From a virus (taxonomy: Duplodnaviria > Heunggongvirae > Uroviricota > Caudoviricetes): a DNA stretch of 7,556 nucleotides. The stretch is from IMG/VR virus record IMGVR_UViG_2737471851_000002, one strand, 5' to 3'. The translations under genes were made by a program, and so were the position numbers. Shown in pieces: positions 1 to 7,556 of the stretch. Position 1 is the stretch's first letter, and each line of letters starts with the position of its first letter. The notes under the pieces were generated by a model. It was not told the DNA's origin, did no database searches, and saw only the letters and a list, made by a program, of their open reading frames with translations.

Positions 1-29
1 CCTGCATCAAATGTCAGCGCATCCAGCAT
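1..29 (-). CDS. D: Tail protein D, N-terminal fragment only (ATG at 29..27, reads MLDALTFDA...; gene continues past the window start)
   Basis: ATG overlaps the U stop as TAATG (31..27) on the minus strand. Its position directly after U matches the P2 order FI-FII-E-T-U-D. Only about 9 codons are visible, so identity rests mainly on synteny. Confidence 0.5.
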
Positions 30-508
30 TATCCCGCCCCCGTCATACCCGTGAATTTAGTCGCCATACTGCCAGCCTTACCGATGAGCGACTCCGCCTG
101 TTTACCGATATCGCCATAAAGCGCGGCCAGTGATTCATCAACGCGGGTGAGCGACAGCGTAAAATCAATTTTTCGGGGTGTGCCATCTGCAAAGAAAATA
201 CTCCCTGTTTCACTCACCCTGCTGATGACATACATGCCGTAAATCATGCCGGTGCCATCCAGCAACGGCCACGCCCGGCCTTCCTCTGCCATCAGCCTGA
301 GCGTGGTCATCGTCAGCTTCCCGCCGGTCAGTTCGGGATAAAGCACGCCGGCAAGTGTGATGTTTTCCTCGCCAACACCGAGAAACTGAAAGGCATCCCG
401 TTTACCGATACGGGAATTTGACGGCCAGCGATAATCTGATTCACGCTGCATGGTCTGGTGTGGCAGCGTCTGGCGCATAAAAACAAACATACCTAACGCG
501 AGCATCAT
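29..508 (-). CDS. U: Tail protein U (P2 gpU-like, 159 aa)
   Basis: 159-aa ORF directly downstream of the tape measure gene. Length and position match P2 gpU. A strong GGAGG Shine-Dalgarno sits in the 14-nt gap after the T stop (509..522, minus strand). Confidence 0.8.
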   Translation of the reverse strand: MMLALGMFVFMRQTLPHQTMQRESDYRWPSNSRIGKRDAFQFLGVGEENITLAGVLYPELTGGKLTMTTLRLMAEEGRAWPLLDGTGMIYGMYVISRVSETGSIFFADGTPRKIDFTLSLTRVDESLAALYGDIGKQAESLIGKAGSMATKFTGMTGAG

Positions 509-522
509 TTTTCGTCACCTCC

Positions 523-2970
523 TTAACCGTCATGCATCATGCTGGCACGGGCGCGCGCACGTTTATCCCGCTCGTATTTTTCGAGCGCATCCTGTAACTG
601 GCGGTCAAGCTGTGTCCCCGGCGCAGTACCACCCGTCAGGCTGATGTGATATTCGTTTTTACTCTGGTCCACATAAGAGCGGCCAGCCGGTGCCGTAACC
701 GGCTGATAAGCCTGATAGCCTGCATAAGAGCTGGTCGCCGGAATATAACCACCGCTGCCATACGTGGCGGCTTGAGTTCTGGCGGCGGTCTGGTCAAGTG
801 TGTCTGACTCTTTGTTGATAACACCGAGTTTTTCCAGTACCCAGTCAATTCCGCTGCGCAGTTTGTTGAACGCATTAAGCGGCAGCATCAGCGCGTCAGC
901 CAGTGCCTGCCCGAACATGACGCCAGTATCACGGCAACGGTTCAGGGTGTCCTGGGTGGCTTTGACCGGGGCAATCAGGTTTTTAAACCACTGCCACGCG
1001 GCCTGTAACTTTTCGCCCAGCCAGTCAAACACCGGCTTAAGTGGCGTGAACAGTTCCCCCACCGGCGCAAATGCCGCTTTCAGCCCTTCCATCACACCGC
1101 CAAAGAATGCGCTGACAGGCTCCCAGTATTTACGGATAAGCAACGCCCCGGCGACAATGGCGGCCACCACGGCCACAACCGGCCAGCTAATCGCCCCGAT
1201 GGCGGTCATAACAGCACTGCCAACCGTCGTGAAGATTGCCCCCATTGCGCCTGCTGCCGCGATGATGGCATTGATGCCGGTGATAACCGGCCAGGCTACA
1301 AGACCAATGGCACCGATGATGCCAGTAAGCGCCAGCGCGCCACCGGCAATTAGGCCAATGGTTGACGCCAGTGATTTGTTTTTCTGGATCCAGCCGTCGA
1401 GTTTTAACACATACTTTGTGGCCGTCTGCGTGAGCTTACGCAGTGCGCCTTCCTGCTGGTCAAACAGGTCAGTCCCCACCGCTTCATAAGCGGACTGAAA
1501 CTCCTTAAAGTCACCGCCGAGGTTGTCCTGCATGATTTTAACCAGCTCTTCCGTTTTACCGTCTGAGGCTTTCAGTGTGGCGGTCAGCTTATCCAGTTTT
1601 CCGCTTGCAGCCGCTGCCAGTAAAACGTTCGCTGATTTCAGGGCTTCCTCACCAAAAATGGTTTTAAGGTATTCCCCCTTCTGAGACGTTCCCAGCTTGT
1701 GTTTATCAAAGCTGGCCTGAATCTCTTTCAGAATGGTGAACAACGGACGCATATTTCCCTTTTTGTCCGAGGTTTTAACGCCAAGCTCTTTGAGTGCATC
1801 CCATGCTTTTCCAGTCGGTGCCTGTAATCGGGTGACAACGGCACTGCCACCCGTACCCGCCATTGACCCCCTGATGTTATTGTCATGCAGCACACCTGTC
1901 ATGGCCGCTGCCTGTTCAAGACTTACACCTGCCGTCCTCGCAACCGGACCGAGGTAAGTCAGTGCATCACTGAGTCCCTGAAAATCAGCCGCCGACTTAT
2001 TCATCGTTGCCGACAACACGTCGCCCACATGGCTGACATCATCATTTGACAGTTGAAAGGATGCCTTAGTCCCCAGCAACAGTTGCGCGTTTTCTTCCAT
2101 CGACCGCTGATTCGCCAGTGCCATATTCAGCGTGACCGGCGTTGCCGCCTGAATAGCCGCAGCATCTCCACCCGCTTTCGCAATGATAATCTGCGCACCG
2201 GCCGCATCATCCGCTGAGGCGGCGGTATTGTCGCCGAGCTGGCGCGCCTGTTTGCGGAGCGCGGCCATTTCGGCGGAATCTTTTGCCACACCGAGCACGG
2301 CCTGCAATTCTGAGTTTTTCTGCGCAAACTCATAACCGGGCATCAGCAGCTTAACTCCGGCCATCGTTCCCGCCGCCGCAATCCCCACACCGGCAGCGCC
2401 CACTGAGGCCATATTTCCGGCCAGTTCCTTTCCGGCCTGATAACGCTGTTTTACTGCGTTAAGTTTTGCCTGTTGCGCACTGACACGCACCAGCGCATCA
2501 CGCTGACGGTTAAGCTGTGCGGTGGTTTCACTGATACGGTTTTTCAGTCCCTGCTCATCATGTGCAAGATTGCGGGTATTAATTCCCACAGCGGCCAGTT
2601 CCCGCTGCTGGCGTTTAACGGAATCTGTCAGGCGGTTATATTTCGCCTGTAAGTCCTCCGCCGCACGCTTTGCGGATTCCAGGACTTTCGCCTGAGCACG
2701 GGTCGGACGTTCGGTGTTTTTAAACTGTGTGGCAAGGGCTTCGGCCTCCTGCCGTGCCTTTTCAAGTGCATGACCAGTCACGGCGAGCTGTGCACTGGTC
2801 TTGCGGAATCCCTCAATACGGGATGCGTGACCGTTCAGCTCGCGCAGTGATTTTTGTGTTTCCCGGATATCCCCCGACAGCGACTTGCTCGCTGTGCGGA
2901 TGGATTTAAACGGGCGGGATGCCTGGTCAACAGCCCTGAGCAATACCTGTAATTTTACATTGTTACTCAT
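523..2970 (-). CDS. T: Tail tape measure protein (P2 gpT-like, 815 aa)
   Basis: 815-aa ORF, the same length as I recall for P2 gpT. It has an Ala/Gln/Arg/Glu-rich, coiled-coil-like N-terminal region and Gly/Ala-rich hydrophobic stretches (e.g. GNMASVGAAGVGIAAAGTMAGV and IGLIAGGALALTGIIGAIGLVAWPV), both typical of tape measure proteins. It lies immediately downstream of E/E'. Confidence 0.9.
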   Translation of the reverse strand: MSNNVKLQVLLRAVDQASRPFKSIRTASKSLSGDIRETQKSLRELNGHASRIEGFRKTSAQLAVTGHALEKARQEAEALATQFKNTERPTRAQAKVLESAKRAAEDLQAKYNRLTDSVKRQQRELAAVGINTRNLAHDEQGLKNRISETTAQLNRQRDALVRVSAQQAKLNAVKQRYQAGKELAGNMASVGAAGVGIAAAGTMAGVKLLMPGYEFAQKNSELQAVLGVAKDSAEMAALRKQARQLGDNTAASADDAAGAQIIIAKAGGDAAAIQAATPVTLNMALANQRSMEENAQLLLGTKASFQLSNDDVSHVGDVLSATMNKSAADFQGLSDALTYLGPVARTAGVSLEQAAAMTGVLHDNNIRGSMAGTGGSAVVTRLQAPTGKAWDALKELGVKTSDKKGNMRPLFTILKEIQASFDKHKLGTSQKGEYLKTIFGEEALKSANVLLAAAASGKLDKLTATLKASDGKTEELVKIMQDNLGGDFKEFQSAYEAVGTDLFDQQEGALRKLTQTATKYVLKLDGWIQKNKSLASTIGLIAGGALALTGIIGAIGLVAWPVITGINAIIAAAGAMGAIFTTVGSAVMTAIGAISWPVVAVVAAIVAGALLIRKYWEPVSAFFGGVMEGLKAAFAPVGELFTPLKPVFDWLGEKLQAAWQWFKNLIAPVKATQDTLNRCRDTGVMFGQALADALMLPLNAFNKLRSGIDWVLEKLGVINKESDTLDQTAARTQAATYGSGGYIPATSSYAGYQAYQPVTAPAGRSYVDQSKNEYHISLTGGTAPGTQLDRQLQDALEKYERDKRARARASMMHDG

Positions 2971-3390
2971 TCGTGTTTCCGCTTCGCCGGAGCGCCTTTT
3001 CGCGCCATGTGATGAGTTCGGTCAGGCTCATGGGATACAGTTCTGATGGCGGCCAGTGAAATATCACTGCCACATCCGCCATCAGGTCATCGACCGACAG
3101 ATTTTTCGGGAACGTCACTGCACCGAGTTCGGCGACAAAAAACCGACCACCTTACCGGCCAGCGCCACAAGGTCAGGCAGTTCCAGCGCGGCGACTTCCT
3201 GCTCGGTCAGCATCGGTGCCGTCATGCGCGGCAGCACCTTAATCAGTGCATCGACTTCTGAGTTTGCGACCGCAGCCAGACTGACACCGCGCAGCGTCCC
3301 CGCACTGGGTTTCATCAGCGTGACCTGTTCGATAACCTGCTCACCACGCCTGACCGGATTGTCCAGGGTAATCACATTTTCTTTGTTCAT
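2963..3390 (-). CDS. E+E': Tail assembly chaperone E+E', made by a programmed -1 frameshift near the end of E; predicted about 141 aa
   Basis: Hand translation of the -1 frame from the slippery site is open for 57 codons (FFVAELGAVTFPKNLSVDDLMADVAVIFHWPPSELYPMSLTELITWREKALRRSGNTNE) and stops at TAA 2965..2963, overlapping the T start as ATGAGTAA. The predicted length is consistent with the roughly 142-aa P2 E+E' product as I recall it. Confidence 0.7.
3115..3390 (-). CDS. E: Tail assembly chaperone E (P2 gpE-like, 91 aa)
   Basis: 91-aa ORF between the tube and tape measure genes. It ends ...VVGFLSPNSVQ, with a TTTTTTG slippery heptamer just before its stop. Confidence 0.85.
   Translation of the reverse strand: MNKENVITLDNPVRRGEQVIEQVTLMKPSAGTLRGVSLAAVANSEVDALIKVLPRMTAPMLTEQEVAALELPDLVALAGKVVGFLSPNSVQ
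3136..3142 (-). other. Slippery heptamer TTTTTTG (within GGTTTTTTG) for the E to E' -1 frameshift
   Basis: Read directly on the minus strand at the G-F-L codons of E. A T6G site is the frameshift site described for the P2 tail operon. Confidence 0.7.
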
Positions 3391-3446: not shown

Positions 3447-3965
3447 TTACAGGCCGATATTGCGGCGGTGTTGCTCCAGCCGGTCGACGCCATTCACCTT
3501 CTCAATCATGTTGATGGTGTCGATTTCGACCAGTTCCTTACCGTCCATCGTCAGCCGGAAATAGGTGCAGACCACGGAGATTTTCGACTCGGTGTCTTCT
3601 CCCTGTTTCCCCTCGCCGGTGTCGATTTCTTTCTGACGTCCACGCATGACCACCTCGACGGCCACAGTTTCGCCGGTATCGTCGCGCTGGTAAGAGCCTG
3701 CAAAACGAATCGGCACAGCATCCACACCGATTGCGGCGTAAAGCTCCCAGATAACCGAATCCGGGAAGCCCCCGAGCGACCACTCCATTGACAGTGCATC
3801 GTCATCAAGGCCGAGGTCTACCGGTGCGCTGCCGTTCATCCCCGCACCGCGATAGTTTTCGAGCTTACGGGTCAGTTTTGGCAGCGTGACGGACTTTGCA
3901 ACGCCCTGATAGCTGTAGCCGTTCAGAAAGACGTTCATTAACTTGAGTTTGCGCGGCATTGCCAT
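3447..3965 (-). CDS. FII: Tail tube protein (P2 gpFII-like, 172 aa)
   Basis: 172-aa ORF directly downstream of the sheath gene. A GGAG Shine-Dalgarno lies in the 12-nt gap after the FI stop. Length and position match P2 FII. Confidence 0.9.
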   Translation of the reverse strand: MAMPRKLKLMNVFLNGYSYQGVAKSVTLPKLTRKLENYRGAGMNGSAPVDLGLDDDALSMEWSLGGFPDSVIWELYAAIGVDAVPIRFAGSYQRDDTGETVAVEVVMRGRQKEIDTGEGKQGEDTESKISVVCTYFRLTMDGKELVEIDTINMIEKVNGVDRLEQHRRNIGL

Positions 3966-3977
3966 CGGTCAGGCTCC

Positions 3978-5168
3978 TTAATTGCTGTTAACCGAGGTGA
4001 CCAGATTTGCCAGGTATTTATCGGTAATACGCTGGCGCAGGGTCAGGTTTTCGAGAGGAGGCACCGGGGTATAGTCGTAGTCGATATACAGTTTTCCGGC
4101 CTTGAGGGTTTCCGCATCGTTGGATTCTTCGCTGAACCAGCAGGTCGCATCCACGATATAGCCGTTTGTTTTCAGCTCACGGAATTTGGCATTGATGCCG
4201 TCAACGATGTCGCGAATCAGCGTTGCGGTGATGGGCTTGTCCACCGCCCACATGTGCGCCTCAGCCATCGTGTCGGCCAGCACCTGCGCGGTGCGGGTGT
4301 AGTTTTCAAAGAGGAACAGCGGGTCATCGGAGCAGGTACGGTTACCCCAGAAGCGGAAACCGTCGCGGCGAATCAGCGTTGTGACGCCTGACTCGTTAAG
4401 CAGGTCAGCATCGGTGCCGGACTCCTGCAAATCCCAGAATACAGATGCGCTGATGCCGGTAACACCGTTCACCCCGACATTGGACAGCGTTTTATGCCAG
4501 CCCTGCTCCTGGTCGATTTTAGCGCGCAGACCCAGCGCACGGGCGGTGGCATACGCGGTGGCAGTGGTACTGGTGACCGTATCCCATGCGAGGAAATCCG
4601 GCCAGATGACCATCAGCTCACGCTGGCTGAAATTCTGACGGTAGGCTTTCACCTCGGAAATGGTTTTACAGCCCCATGCGCTGATATACCCGAAAGCGCG
4701 CAGCTTCTGACAGACTGATGCCAGTGCAACAGCCACCTCTTTGGTGTCCAGTCCCGGCACGCCGAGAATACGCGGTTTAACACCAGTTACCGACTCCGCC
4801 GCCAGCAGGGCTTTCAGTCCGGTGTACTGACCGTTTTCGTCGGTGGTGCCGATGATATTGGAAACGGTCTGCGCGAGTTTCGTTTCTTCGTCGTCGCCGG
4901 TGCCGTCTTCCACACGCACGACAACGGTGACCGGTTTTGACTGGTCGGCGATGGCCTGCAACGATGCCGCCAGCGTGCCTTTTTTACCGGCCTTTGCAAT
5001 TGCGCTCTGCACATTGGTAATCAGCACAGGTTTATTGAGGGGGAAGGTTTCCGCATCCGCATCGCTGGCCGTGCAAACCATGCCGACAATGGCAGTGGAT
5101 ACAGTGGAAATGACGCGGGTGCCATCGTTAATCTCCAGCACCTGCACGCCATGATGATAGTCACTCAT
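3978..5168 (-). CDS. FI: Contractile tail sheath protein (P2 gpFI-like, 396 aa)
   Basis: 396-aa ORF, the same length as I recall for P2 FI, and first gene of the FI-FII-E-T-U-D block. A GGAG Shine-Dalgarno sits 8 nt upstream of the ATG. Confidence 0.9.
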   Translation of the reverse strand: MSDYHHGVQVLEINDGTRVISTVSTAIVGMVCTASDADAETFPLNKPVLITNVQSAIAKAGKKGTLAASLQAIADQSKPVTVVVRVEDGTGDDEETKLAQTVSNIIGTTDENGQYTGLKALLAAESVTGVKPRILGVPGLDTKEVAVALASVCQKLRAFGYISAWGCKTISEVKAYRQNFSQRELMVIWPDFLAWDTVTSTTATAYATARALGLRAKIDQEQGWHKTLSNVGVNGVTGISASVFWDLQESGTDADLLNESGVTTLIRRDGFRFWGNRTCSDDPLFLFENYTRTAQVLADTMAEAHMWAVDKPITATLIRDIVDGINAKFRELKTNGYIVDATCWFSEESNDAETLKAGKLYIDYDYTPVPPLENLTLRQRITDKYLANLVTSVNSN

Positions 5169-5428: not shown

Positions 5429-6253
5429 TTAGTTATCTTTTTGCTTTTCTTTATCCCATTTCTTTGCAGTGGTCTGATACCACTCTTCACGTGCTCGTTG
5501 TTCCTCGGCTCTGTCACTTGAATTATAGTTGTCTGTTTTAATTTTTTTGCTTCCCTGGGAAATCGGCCTCCAGTCTTCTCTAATCTTTTTCATCTGCTCA
5601 GCTATCTGTGTCATTGGACTCCTTGCACCTAAGTAGCTAACCCCCTCGAAAGAAGCCATATCATAAGAATACTCATTCCGCTCTCTTTCAGTTGAGCCCG
5701 GCTGTTTAGACCAGCTAATACTAACAGAATAAACTTGATCTTTAATCTGGTCATACTTACAAAGACTGCTGTTGAGGGAATGGCCGTTTTTCAATACGCT
5801 AACCTTGCTAAATGGTATACCTTTATTTTTTCTATGTTCTGCATTAACCAGTGGGGGATTAAATCCGACTTCAATATCATAGGCTGGGGCATTTCCGGTA
5901 TTAGCAATATTGATATCAAAATAAAAAGCAGCCCAAGAATTTGGTTCAAGAGTCACAACGACATGAGGTTGAACTGATGCGTCAACCATCCTTTTTGTCT
6001 CGTCTGCTAATAGCCTTGTTACTCTCCACAAGAAAAATGTAGCAACTGCTGTTAGCAATGCTGCCAAAGCGGAGATATCGGCACTTAAATCGCCGTTCGT
6101 CTGCGGGTCACTGCCCGGCATCGGGCAAAGGCTCACTTTCGGGCAGGCGTTGGCGACAATCACTGGCGTCAGTGCAGGCCGGACGCTGGTGCAACCGGCG
6201 CACAGCATCAGGCAGGTCAGCGCCATACCAGCGGCGAAAATCCTCGTTTTCAT
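5429..6253 (-). CDS. lysC: LysC-like o-spanin lipoprotein start (embedded in lysB) whose frame runs on into a lower-GC cargo segment; predicted 274-aa chimeric product
   Basis: ATG at 6253..6251 with a GAGG Shine-Dalgarno 9-12 nt upstream, inside lysB in another frame. The N-terminus MKTRIFAAGMALTCLMLCAGC is a lipoprotein signal with a lipobox-like LCAGC, followed by a Pro/Cys-rich segment, as in Rz1/LysC o-spanins. The frame has no stop until 5429..5431. Downstream come a hydrophobic stretch (ISALAALLTAVATFFLW, about 6026..6076) and about 190 aa of unrecognised sequence ending in a charged tail (KKWDKEKQKDN). The start assigned by the ORF track at 6370 has no ribosome binding site and is probably not used. 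Confidence 0.55.
   Translation of the reverse strand: MKTRIFAAGMALTCLMLCAGCTSVRPALTPVIVANACPKVSLCPMPGSDPQTNGDLSADISALAALLTAVATFFLWRVTRLLADETKRMVDASVQPHVVVTLEPNSWAAFYFDINIANTGNAPAYDIEVGFNPPLVNAEHRKNKGIPFSKVSVLKNGHSLNSSLCKYDQIKDQVYSVSISWSKQPGSTERERNEYSYDMASFEGVSYLGARSPMTQIAEQMKKIREDWRPISQGSKKIKTDNYNSSDRAEEQRAREEWYQTTAKKWDKEKQKDN
5430..5990. other. Lower-GC cargo segment (about 40% GC by hand count, against roughly 55-60% in the flanking phage genes)
   Basis: GC was hand-counted in 60-nt blocks and ranged from 33% to 52%. The coding frame uses codons rare in enterobacterial and phage genes (ATA, AGA, AGG). The segment lies between the lysis cassette and the sheath gene, adjacent to FI where P2 has its Z/fun locus. 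Confidence 0.6.
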
Positions 6254-6533
6254 TAAGTAACCTCGTGATGGTTTTCTCGCGCTGTGCTTCACGTTTCGCG
6301 GCGTTCTCCAGTTCCTGACGCAGTGCCACCTGCGCCAGCTCGTTTTTGCCTGCCCTGGTAAGGGCAACATGAAGCTGGTTTTTCAGCATGGTGATGGTCG
6401 TCTGCTGTTCACTGGCGACGTTGTTCGCCCTGTCCAGCGAGGCGCGCAGGCTGGCATTTTTATGTTTCACCAGAAACAGACCGGCCACCGCCAGTGATAA
6501 CAACACAACCAGCACAGTCATCAGCTTTGACAT
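6108..6533 (-). CDS. lysB: i-spanin LysB (Rz-like, 141 aa)
   Basis: N-terminal transmembrane segment (MSKLMTVLVVLLSLAVAGLFLV) followed by a charged, helical periplasmic domain. A second ORF with a lipoprotein signal is embedded in another frame, the Rz/Rz1 arrangement. GAGG Shine-Dalgarno upstream. The start overlaps the lysA 3' end by 13 nt. Confidence 0.85.
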   Translation of the reverse strand: MSKLMTVLVVLLSLAVAGLFLVKHKNASLRASLDRANNVASEQQTTITMLKNQLHVALTRAGKNELAQVALRQELENAAKREAQREKTITRLLNENEDFRRWYGADLPDAVRRLHQRPACTDASDCRQRLPESEPLPDAGQ

Positions 6534-6946
6534 GGTTCCCGCCCCTCAAAACGCTGACGGCAGGCCGTACGTATCAGCCGGAAAAACAGCGACGCCACAA
6601 GATAAATCAGCGCAGTAAAAATCCACCCGGCAGCGACCAGCGAGATAAACGTCACCACCATCACCACCAGAGCCGCCACCCGTCTGCACCACGGCACCGG
6701 CTGCAAAAACAGCGACGTGACAATCTTCACGGCCAGCGATTCCGGCGGCAGCTCCCGTCCGTAGCGTTCCAGTACATACTCAGTGGCATACACACCGACA
6801 CCACCGGCAACCACACAGATAACCGTCGCCAGAATCGCCCAGGTGGCAACAAAACTGACGGCCACGCTCTGCGGGTAAATCAGGGACAGTGCCAGCATCA
6901 GCGCCAGCAACACGTTCAGCATCAGTGAAAGGGATAATTTCTTCAT
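6521..6946 (-). CDS. lysA: LysA-like membrane protein (lysis timing or antiholin-type accessory, 141 aa)
   Basis: 141-aa ORF with several predicted transmembrane helices, sitting between the endolysin and lysB as in P2. GGAG Shine-Dalgarno 9-12 nt upstream. Confidence 0.75.
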   Translation of the reverse strand: MKKLSLSLMLNVLLALMLALSLIYPQSVAVSFVATWAILATVICVVAGGVGVYATEYVLERYGRELPPESLAVKIVTSLFLQPVPWCRRVAALVVMVVTFISLVAAGWIFTALIYLVASLFFRLIRTACRQRFEGREPCQS

Positions 6947-6960
6947 GGTGTTGACTCCGT

Positions 6961-7458
6961 TTAAGCCGGTACGCCGCCAGCGGTACGCCAGACGGTGACC
7001 AGTTTTTCCAGTGAATGCTCACGCTGACCGTAACCGGCACCCGGCAGGGACGCCCAGATATTGCGACAGCGTGAAATGGCGCGCTCAATGCGTCCCGCCC
7101 GGATGTCATCCAGTGCACCGCGTTCGCGGATCAACTGAATGGCGAGCCTGTCCTGTGACAACGGACTGAAATCCGGCAGGGCAAGCTGTTTGCGGTAATG
7201 CGGCCAGAACAGGTAAAGCTGCTGATAGCGACCGGAGGCCGTTGATTTTTCACCGCGACGGTTAAACACCTTCGCCGGTCGGCCATGCGCGAACGGGTGG
7301 TCACTGTAGTCGGTGAAAATTTCCGGCTTTCCGTCCAGTCCGGTGACTATCACGTCATAGCCCCGGTTTTTCGTCAGCGGATGGTTCACCGTCCCTTCGG
7401 ACACGGCCAGCATGTCGAGAAAGGCGGCGATATTCTGATGCGTGTTAATTACCGGCAT
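6961..7458 (-). CDS. K: Endolysin, lambda-R-like lytic transglycosylase (P2 gpK-like, 165 aa)
   Basis: N-terminal motif FLDMLAVSEGT and C-terminal IWASLPGAGYGQREH closely resemble lambda R (LDMLAWSEGT ... IWASLPGAGYGQFEH) as I recall it. Length and position match P2 K. Confidence 0.9.
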   Translation of the reverse strand: MPVINTHQNIAAFLDMLAVSEGTVNHPLTKNRGYDVIVTGLDGKPEIFTDYSDHPFAHGRPAKVFNRRGEKSTASGRYQQLYLFWPHYRKQLALPDFSPLSQDRLAIQLIRERGALDDIRAGRIERAISRCRNIWASLPGAGYGQREHSLEKLVTVWRTAGGVPA

Positions 7459-7556
7459 TACGGTTTCCCCCTGCCCTTAAAGCGGCGCTGAATGGCAATC
7501 TCAATCACCTGATAACCGGCGATACCCAGCATGGAGCCGATGCCGCACACCGCAGG
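7458..7556 (-). CDS. Y: Holin, C-terminal fragment (the gene starts beyond the window end)
   Basis: Open frame entering from the window end reads ...PAVCGIGSMLGIAGYQVIEIAIQRRFKGRGKP and stops at TAA 7460..7458, overlapping the K start as TAATG. Its position immediately upstream of the endolysin fits the P2 holin. Only 32 codons are visible. Confidence 0.5.
   Translation of the reverse strand, partial: PAVCGIGSMLGIAGYQVIEIAIQRRFKGRGKP

What the first reader, a model, noticed from the sequence alone, without database searches (positions are those of the whole stretch)
2963..3145. Intact E/E' -1 frameshift cassette with E' stop overlapping the tape measure start
The T6G slippery heptamer sits at the G-F-L codons of E. 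The -1 frame is then open for 57 codons and ends in TAA embedded in ATGAGTAA, so termination of E+E' coincides with the T start codon. This preserves the chaperone to tape measure stoichiometry mechanism and argues that the tail module is under selection, which is notable given the apparent absence of baseplate genes.
Basis: partly seen in the sequence, partly recalled or inferred. Interest (0 to 1): 0.45.

Follow-up and report, generated by a model that had tools for sequence, protein, structure and literature searches.

The report
Phage P2 E/E' tail-chaperone frameshift site
This is the already well-described programmed -1 ribosomal frameshift of phage P2 that makes two tail-assembly chaperones (E and E+E') from one start. 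It sits here in a P2-type prophage that has only just lost its baseplate genes, so it is ordinary and its intactness says nothing about selection.

Summary
All features are on the minus strand.

- Gene E (3390..3115, 91 aa) carries the in-phase heptamer T TTT TTG at 3142..3136, over its G-F-L codons.
- The -1 frame then runs 57 codons to TAA at 2965..2963, inside ATGAGTAA, which also holds the tape-measure (T) start at 2970.
- The fused product is 142 aa and 15.5 kDa.

The stretch differs from phage P2 at 9 of 461 bases. P2's reference record annotates the same E+E' join, the same shift site and the same 8-nt overlap with T. Pfam places Phage_TAC_7 before the shift and Phage_P2_GpE after it. 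In 15 relatives sampled across 418 phage records, the slippery site and a 54-71 codon -1 extension are kept.

The window equals an intact E. coli prophage minus one clean 8,400-bp deletion, with a single synonymous change in 7,556 bases. No time has passed for decay. The stop/start overlap is a lineage trait that is absent in distant relatives, not the stoichiometry mechanism.

Verdict: already known, low interest.

The parts
3115..3390 (-). Gene E: the 0-frame tail assembly chaperone, 91 aa, stop TGA at 3117..3115
   Evidence: ORF list and translation. Pfam Phage_TAC_7 covers residues 7-85. Aligns to P2 E in NC_001895.
3136..3142 (-). Slippery heptamer T TTT TTG in X XXY YYZ phase. It covers the last base of Gly83, then Phe84 and Leu85.
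   Evidence: Same position as the P2 feature annotated 'site of -1 translational frameshift'. A T-run heptamer sits at the equivalent position in 14 of 15 divergent relatives, and A AAT TTT in the 15th. Phe84 is invariant in the protein alignment.
2963..3136 (-). E' segment: 57 sense codons in the -1 frame plus the TAA stop (2965..2963). It is translated only as the C-terminal part of E+E' (142 aa, 15.5 kDa).
   Evidence: Pfam Phage_P2_GpE covers residues 104-139 of the fusion. The only 2 base differences from P2 in this segment are synonymous in the E' frame. Residues D106, E125, W129, A133 and R136 are invariant across relatives.
2963..2970 (-). ATGAGTAA octamer: the T start codon (2970..2968) overlaps the E' stop (2965..2963)
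   Evidence: P2 has the same 8-nt overlap, with E+E' ending at 19857 and T starting at 19850. The motif is present in 8 of 16 cassettes compared. Four relatives have T starting 2-53 nt after the stop.
523..2970 (-). Gene T: tail tape measure protein, 815 aa, the presumed client of E and E+E'
   Evidence: Pfam PhageMin_Tail and NCBIfam TIGR01760. The identical protein occurs in many E. coli assemblies.
3447..3965 (-). Gene FII: tail tube protein, 172 aa, upstream neighbour of E
   Evidence: Pfam Phage_tube, E = 1e-59.
3978..5168 (-). Gene FI: tail sheath protein, 396 aa, first gene of the F operon
   Evidence: Pfam Phage_sheath_1, Phage_sheath_1C and Gp18_domIII_N.
29..508 (-). Gene U: tail protein, 159 aa, downstream of T
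   Evidence: Pfam Phage_P2_GpU.
3147..3153 (-). Shine-Dalgarno-like AAGGTGG, 4 nt 5' of the heptamer. A possible but unproven stimulator.
   Evidence: Strongest anti-SD-binding 9-mer of 310 positions around E, at -8.4 kcal/mol. The synonymous-recoding control is not significant.
6074..6077 (-). Junction of the 8,400-bp deletion (TATC microhomology) that removed the 3' end of lysC, plus R, S, orf30, V, W, J, I, H, G and two small ORFs. This is context for the 'missing baseplate' remark.
   Evidence: BLAST of the window against the intact prophages L001, L011 and L003.

Best explanation
This is the phage P2 programmed -1 ribosomal frameshift cassette for the tail assembly chaperones gpE and gpE+E'.

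Proposed mechanism:
1. Ribosomes translate E from ATG 3390.
2. Most continue in frame and terminate at TGA 3117..3115, giving the 91-aa gpE.
3. With tRNA-Phe and tRNA-Leu on UUU UUG, a minority slip back one base on U UUU UUG (3142..3136).
4. Those ribosomes read 57 more codons in the -1 frame and terminate at TAA 2965..2963. This gives the 142-aa gpE+E'.
5. By analogy with lambda gpG/gpGT, the shared N-terminal domain coats the tape measure protein T. The rarer E' domain recruits the tube protein. The fixed E : E+E' ratio is what tail assembly needs.

Shown here: the sequence anatomy, near-identity to P2, domain homology on both sides of the shift, and conservation of the site and the -1 extension in distant relatives.

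Inferred from the literature on P2 and lambda: that the shift happens, that it is ribosomal, its efficiency, and the chaperone role.

At this locus the cassette belongs to a prophage that has very recently lost its baseplate, tail-fibre and tail-completion genes. It is sequence-competent, but its products have no tail to build unless those parts are supplied in trans.
For: - Anatomy is exactly as described.
- The 551-nt region is 98.0-98.9% identical to the 25 best of 74 Peduovirus records, and 95-99% to all 74.
- It differs from the P2 reference at 9 of 461 aligned bases. One change is an amino-acid change (R14 vs K14). Both changes in E' are synonymous in the E' frame.
- NC_001895 annotates E+E' as a 2-piece join with a '-1 translational frameshift' site at the same column, and T starting 8 nt before the E+E' end.
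- Pfam hits: Phage_TAC_7 on residues 7-85 and Phage_P2_GpE on residues 104-139. PHROG tail families match both halves.
- tblastn finds the two-frame arrangement in 418 phage records, 399 of them covering at least 80% of the query.
- In 15 relatives with 35-76% identity, a slippery heptamer sits at the homologous position: T6G in 11, T7 in 1, T6C in 2, A AAT TTT in 1. A 54-71 codon -1 extension follows.
- The T-run is the only invariant nucleotide block around the site.
- Conserved residues lie on both sides of the shift.
- Literature: in P2 the shift occurs at TTTTTTG and yields 91-aa E and 142-aa E+E' (PMC3091744). [quoted passage not shown] Efficiency is 2-3 times that of lambda G-T (PMC5009743). 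All three cite Christie et al. 2002.
Against: - Nothing in the sequence argues against it.
- No protein evidence exists for this particular element.
- No stimulatory RNA structure is detectable. That matches what is reported for P2, so it is not a real objection.
- The functional relevance at this locus is doubtful, because the baseplate and tail-completion genes are deleted.
Confidence: 0.93

Rival explanations
1. Transcriptional slippage. RNA polymerase adds one extra U on the T6 run, so a subset of mRNAs encodes E+E' in a continuous frame. No ribosomal frameshift would be involved.
For: A one-base insertion in a homopolymer run gives the same protein as a -1 ribosomal shift. One relative has T7 at the site (Zymomonas pZM41), and T7G and T7C sites are reported in Xanthomonas and Stenotrophomonas relatives (PMC3931495). 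Longer runs favour polymerase slippage.
Against: - From my own knowledge, six T is short for efficient bacterial transcriptional slippage.
- The conserved feature is a heptamer in X XXY YYZ phase, not just a run. P88_4B11 uses A AAT TTT, which has no long homopolymer.
- The field treats the P2 site as ribosomal (PMC5009743; PMC3091744).
Confidence: 0.03
2. E' is an independent small gene, translated from GTG 3118 as a free-standing 51-aa 'GpE family' protein. This is how PGAP and other gene callers annotate it.
For: RefSeq annotation of the near-identical prophage lists a separate 51-aa CDS. Other callers list 51- or 39-aa products.
Against: - There is no usable ribosome-binding site. The best anti-SD match upstream of GTG 3118 is -5.3 kcal/mol with a 1-nt gap.
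- The literature states that E' lacks an RBS (PMC3931495).
- The candidate internal start is not conserved: callers pick different starts.
- The in-phase heptamer is conserved.
- The curated P2, PSP3 and Wphi records annotate a join.
Confidence: 0.02
3. The cassette is intact here because the remnant tail module is still under purifying selection in its host. It might, for example, supply sheath, tube, chaperones and tape measure to another element.
For: All F-operon ORFs in the window are full length. The region upstream of FI is identical to that of intact prophages. P2-type sequences are common in E. coli: 1,820 of 5,426 complete genomes match the window. A helper in trans is therefore conceivable.
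Against: - The window differs from an intact prophage by one deletion and 1 synonymous SNP in 7,556 nt. There has been no time for selection to act or for decay to show.
- The junction was not found in 5,426 complete E. coli genomes, PLSDB plasmids, GTDB species representatives, IMG/VR or JGI metagenomes. No lineage is seen to maintain it.
- Other members of this prophage family carry different, independent deletions that do cut into tail genes, such as the R::FI fusion in L018.
Confidence: 0.03

Closest known systems
Phage P2 gpE / gpE+E' programmed -1 frameshift in the FI-FII-E-E'-T-U-D operon (Christie et al. 2002, J Bacteriol 184:6522; reference record NC_001895)
   Same: - Same genes in the same order.
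- Same T TTT TTG heptamer on the G-F-L codons.
- Same 91-aa and 142-aa products.
- Same 37-nt reach of E' back into E.
- Same ATGAGTAA overlap with T.
- 452 of 461 aligned bases are identical.
   Different: - One conservative residue differs (R14 here, K14 in P2).
- Eight silent base changes.
- The surrounding prophage has lost R through G by deletion.
Phage lambda gpG / gpGT tail assembly chaperones (-1 frameshift at G GGA AAG; Levin et al. 1993; Xu, Hendrix and Duda 2004, 2013, 2014)
   Same: - Same genomic position, between the major tail or tube gene and the tape-measure gene.
- Same logic: a short abundant product and a rarer -1 extended product sharing an N-terminus.
- Same presumed role in coating the tape measure and recruiting tube subunits (PMC5009743).
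   Different: - No sequence similarity is reported between the E/E' and lambda proteins (PMC3931495). The Pfam families hit here are Phage_TAC_7 and Phage_P2_GpE.
- The heptamer differs.
- Efficiency in P2-type phages is reported as 2-3 times higher.
- P2 has a contractile tail and lambda a non-contractile one.
E. coli dnaX -1 frameshift (A AAA AAG with an upstream SD-like element and a downstream stem-loop)
   Same: Both are bacterial -1 tandem slippage on an X XXY YYZ heptamer made of a homopolymer run ending in G. An SD-like sequence lies upstream in both cases (AAGGTGG here).
   Different: - No downstream structure here (z = -1.05 and -1.52; 0 conserved pairs).
- The SD-like element lies only 4 nt from the heptamer, against about 10 nt in dnaX (my own knowledge).
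- The SD-like element here is not distinguishable from an amino-acid constraint.
- The dnaX shift truncates the protein, whereas this one extends it.

Membership tests
P2-type gpE / gpE+E' tail chaperone frameshift cassette | Located between the tail tube gene (FII) and the tape measure gene (T) of a contractile-tail module | tested here: met
   On the minus strand the order is FI 5168..3978, FII 3965..3447, E 3390..3115, E' to 2963, T 2970..523, U 508..29.
P2-type gpE / gpE+E' tail chaperone frameshift cassette | In-phase slippery heptamer (X XXY YYZ; T TTT TTG in P2) a few codons before the stop of the upstream ORF | tested here: met
   T TTT TTG at 3142..3136, with 6 codons left in E.
P2-type gpE / gpE+E' tail chaperone frameshift cassette | A second ORF in the -1 frame, open across the heptamer, with no start codon and ribosome-binding site of its own | tested here: met
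   The -1 frame is open from 3151 to 2966. The only candidate start, GTG 3118, has no correctly spaced SD. This agrees with PMC3931495.
P2-type gpE / gpE+E' tail chaperone frameshift cassette | Sequence homology of both halves to P2 E and E' | tested here: met
   Pfam PF10109 (45.9 bits, cut-off 25) and PF06528 (76.3 bits, cut-off 23). Nucleotide identity to NC_001895 is 98%.
P2-type gpE / gpE+E' tail chaperone frameshift cassette | Arrangement conserved in relatives, with coding constraint in the -1 frame | tested here: met
   418 phage records show two-frame matches. All 15 sampled relatives keep a heptamer and a 54-71 codon extension. Invariant residues lie in the E' part.
P2-type gpE / gpE+E' tail chaperone frameshift cassette | The frameshift product is actually made and is essential for tail assembly | not testable with these tools
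   Reported for P2 itself by Christie et al. 2002, as cited in PMC3091744, PMC3931495 and PMC5009743. The original paper is not held in the library.
Lambda gpG/gpGT family (sequence family) | Detectable sequence homology to lambda gpG / gpT | tested here: not met
   The Pfam scan returns only Phage_TAC_7 and Phage_P2_GpE. The literature states there is no sequence similarity. The relation is functional and positional, not family membership by sequence.
dnaX-type stimulated -1 frameshift | Downstream stimulatory stem-loop or pseudoknot | tested here: not met
   Fold z-scores are -1.05 (86 nt) and -1.52 (241 nt). RNAalifold on 15 relatives predicts 0 pairs. There is no Rfam hit.
dnaX-type stimulated -1 frameshift | Upstream SD-like stimulator selected at the nucleotide level | tested here: inconclusive
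   An SD-like element is present in 11 of 14 relatives and ranks first in the window. Synonymous recoding reaches the same strength in 5-43% of trials.

The most novel reading that the evidence does not exclude
The baseplate-less remnant is not dead. Its intact, still promoter-linked F operon (sheath, tube, E, E+E', tape measure, U) would be kept and expressed. It would supply tail-shaft parts and correctly proportioned chaperones in trans to a co-resident P2-type prophage or satellite. The intact frameshift would then reflect use rather than recency.
Probability: 0.03. Interest if true: 0.4.

Novelty: already known. Interest (0 to 1): 0.07.

Why it matters
It matters little as a discovery. 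The site is the textbook P2 example of the frameshift conserved in long-tailed phage tail-chaperone genes, and it is near-identical to the experimentally studied sequence.

Two practical points follow:
- Automatic annotation still splits E' off as a free-standing 39-51 aa 'GpE family' gene instead of a frameshift join. A scan that flags the cassette is correcting a routine annotation error.
- An intact recoding signal inside a degraded prophage is evidence of selection only if the degradation is old. Here, comparison with an intact sibling shows the deletion is essentially new.

Tried and rejected
**Downstream stimulatory RNA structure.**
- Single-sequence folds are not better than shuffles.
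- There is no consensus structure in 15 relatives and no Rfam family.
- A 5-bp hairpin starting 2 nt after the heptamer appears in the MFE fold. It is not conserved and lies too close to act as a stimulator. Rejected.

**Upstream SD-like stimulator.**
- It is striking by position but not significant once the amino-acid sequence is held fixed. Left as inconclusive.

**Free-standing E' from GTG 3118.** Rejected for lack of an RBS and lack of a conserved start.

**Source of the window and of the deletion junction.**
- Exact-protein look-ups of the LysC-fusion ORF, in both its 313-aa and 274-aa forms, found nothing.
- Exact junction strings were absent from GTDB representatives, IMG/VR and JGI metagenomes.
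- No record spans the junction in complete E. coli genomes or plasmids.

**Widening the comparative sample.** A profile scan of viral contigs failed because the alignment has no stretch conserved enough to seed the search.

**The primary paper (Christie et al. 2002).** It could not be opened by DOI, PMC id or PubMed id. Its content is cited second-hand from three open papers.

**Solved structures.** The PDB sequence search found no solved relative of E+E'. The only hit had E = 0.88 and is noise.

**The GGGAAAC heptamer flagged inside FII by my first scan.** Its '-1 frame' is simply the real FII frame. It is a scanning artefact.
Full report
**1. The observation**

All relevant genes lie on the minus strand.
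- E is 3390..3115 and encodes 91 aa.
- Its codons 83-85 are GGT TTT TTG (3144..3136). The heptamer T TTT TTG (3142..3136) is therefore in the X XXY YYZ phase required for tandem -1 slippage.
- Reading on from base 3136 in the -1 frame gives 57 sense codons (VAELGAVTFPKNLSVDDLMADVAVIFHWPPSELYPMSLTELITWREKALRRSGNTNE) and then TAA at 2965..2963.
- The local sequence is ACACGAATGAGTAAC. The ATG of the 815-aa tape measure gene T (2970..2968) and the E' stop share the octamer ATGAGTAA.
- The fusion protein is 142 aa and 15,465 Da. E alone is 9,665 Da.

On chance:
- A 57-codon open run occurs in about 9% of composition-matched shuffles.
- Only four in-phase X XXY YYZ heptamers exist in the 2,363 codons of the nine minus-strand ORFs I scanned.
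- This is the only one near a gene end whose -1 frame runs past the 0-frame stop.

**2. What it is**

The 551-nt region is 98.0-98.9% identical to the 25 best of 74 Peduovirus (P2-like) phage records, and 95-99% identical to all 74.

Against the phage P2 reference NC_001895:
- It differs at 9 of 461 aligned positions.
- One change is conservative (R14 here, K14 in P2).
- The two changes inside E' are synonymous in the E' frame.
- The record annotates E (276 nt), E+E' as a two-piece join noted '-1 frameshift; essential tail protein', a 'site of -1 translational frameshift' at the homologous column, and T beginning 8 nt before the E+E' end.

Family searches agree. Pfam places Phage_TAC_7 on residues 7-85 of the fusion and Phage_P2_GpE on residues 104-139, both well above their cut-offs. 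PHROG tail families match both halves.

The neighbours are the P2 F operon: sheath FI, tube FII, then E/E', tape measure T and U.

**3. Conservation beyond close relatives**

A tblastn search with the fused protein finds two-frame matches in 418 phage records, 399 of them covering at least 80% of the query. Hosts include Escherichia, Klebsiella, Yersinia, Salmonella, Burkholderia, Ralstonia, Pseudomonas, Vibrio and others.

I fetched 14 of them, spanning 76% down to 35% protein identity, and dissected them together with P2.
- All carry a slippery heptamer at the homologous position: T6G in 11, T7 in 1, T6C in 2, and A AAT TTT in P88_4B11.
- All have a -1 extension of 54-71 codons.
- In the nucleotide alignment, the T-run is the only invariant block around the site.
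- In the protein alignment, the Phe encoded inside the heptamer is invariant.
- Invariant residues lie on both sides of the shift: G31, L33, R34, G35, P54 and R55 in E; D106, E125, W129, A133 and R136 in E'.

The -1 frame is therefore a real coding frame under purifying selection in the family at large.

**4. Mechanism**

Open papers summarise the primary work of Christie et al. 2002.
- In P2 the -1 shift occurs at TTTTTTG and yields 91-aa E and 142-aa E+E' from one start. No downstream structure is present (PMC3091744).
[quoted passage not shown] In the window, the -1 frame is closed upstream at 3154..3152, which gives exactly 37 nt.
- Efficiency in P2-type phages is 2-3 times that of lambda G-T. 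In lambda, the ratio of the two products is what tail assembly requires: the shared domain binds the tape measure and the extension binds the tube protein (PMC5009743).

My own checks agree.
- There is no fold better than shuffles downstream (z = -1.05 and -1.52).
- There is no consensus structure and no Rfam hit.
- There is no usable SD in front of the GTG that gene callers use for a free-standing E'.

Shown here: the anatomy, the homology and the conservation. Inferred: the slippage itself, its efficiency and the chaperone role.

**5.

The window lacks baseplate genes for one specific reason.
- Compared with the near-identical intact prophage in E. coli EC6563, it lacks a block of about 8.4 kb.
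- Compared with the prophage of assembly GCA_004283795.1, window 7556..6074 is 100% identical to L011 8978..10460. Window 6077..1 matches L003 6894..12970 with a single mismatch, at window 92, which is synonymous in U. Exactly 8,400 bp (L011 10461..18860) are missing.
- The junction shares 4 bases of microhomology, TATC.
- The lost block holds the 3' end of lysC, R, S, orf30, V, W, J, I, H, G and two small ORFs.

With 1 difference in 7,556 nt, the deletion is extremely recent or an artefact. Intactness of the frameshift cassette is what neutrality predicts, so it cannot be read as evidence of selection on the remnant.

The junction is not present in 5,426 complete E. coli genomes, PLSDB plasmids, GTDB species representatives, IMG/VR or JGI metagenomes. 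Sibling prophages show other independent deletions, including one that fuses R to the C-terminus of FI (L018). This prophage family simply decays by deletion.

**6. The stop/start overlap**

- ATGAGTRA is present in the window, P2, 186, PSP3, YenM_31.17, KP12, SEN8 and Kp4882-2.
- In PhiBP82.2 the annotated T start lies 2 nt after the E' stop.
- In VHML, Asp37 and Alfacinha1 the T ORF starts 26-53 nt after it.
- In the remaining four relatives the motif is absent and the T start is uncertain.

The overlap is therefore a lineage feature of compact gene packing, not part of the conserved mechanism.

T has a weak SD (-3.5 kcal/mol, against -14.5 for U). Reinitiation by the minority of frameshifted ribosomes is conceivable, but it is untested.

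**7. Verdict**

This is a correct reading of a known element, the P2 E/E+E' programmed -1 frameshift. Its novelty class is 'already known' and its interest is low. The added claims about selection and stoichiometry are not supported.

The only mildly new item is the SD-like AAGGTGG 4 nt upstream of the heptamer.
- It is the strongest anti-SD match around E, and a similar element recurs in 11 of 14 relatives.
- It is largely accounted for by the conserved [K/E]-V residues.

Noticed in passing
window 6074-6077 (junction); fusion ORF 6253..5429, minus strand: A clean 8,400-bp deletion with TATC microhomology removes R through G. It fuses the N-terminal ~58 residues of the Rz1-like lipoprotein LysC (signal peptide and lipobox LCAGC included) in frame to about residue 15 of a 230-aa hypothetical protein. 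The junction was not found in any collection searched.
   Followed up: yes
window 5429-6077, minus strand (intact copy: L011 18817-19509): There is a low-GC cargo gene (38-42% GC against about 56% around it) in the P2 Z/fun position just upstream of FI. It encodes 230 aa with an N-terminal hydrophobic segment. It matches phrog_11802 (unknown function) and has no PADLOC match. Apart from the LysC match to the fused N-terminus, Pfam gave nothing for this part. It is a candidate lysogenic-conversion or defence gene of unknown function.
   Followed up: partly
window 3147-3153, minus strand: A Shine-Dalgarno-like AAGGTGG lies 4 nt 5' of the slippery heptamer. It is the strongest anti-SD 9-mer of 310 positions around E (-8.4 kcal/mol). 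Similar elements occur in 11 of 14 divergent relatives. However, synonymous recoding of the same residues reaches equal strength in 5-43% of trials, so a stimulatory role is unproven.
   Followed up: partly
L001 11960-12115; L003 9853-10008; L004 9889-10008: RefSeq/PGAP and other gene callers annotate E' as a free-standing 51-aa or 39-aa 'GpE family phage tail protein' rather than as a frameshift join with E. This looks like a systematic annotation error across E. coli prophages.
   Followed up: partly
L018 10534-10989; L005 739-2312 and 12463-12885; L009 929-2305; L013 7817-10001: Sibling copies of the same prophage, with identical LysB or T proteins, carry other independent deletions. They include an R::FI-C-terminus fusion, a portal gene abutting a truncated J, a truncated D with U missing, and loss of the head genes. 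This prophage lineage is decaying repeatedly by deletion.
   Followed up: partly
window 2971-2992, minus strand (upstream of the T start): The tape measure gene has a very weak ribosome-binding site (GAAGCGGAA, -3.5 kcal/mol) compared with U (-14.5) and FII (-8.4). This is consistent with low T output, or with partial dependence on ribosomes terminating at the overlapping E' stop.
   Followed up: no
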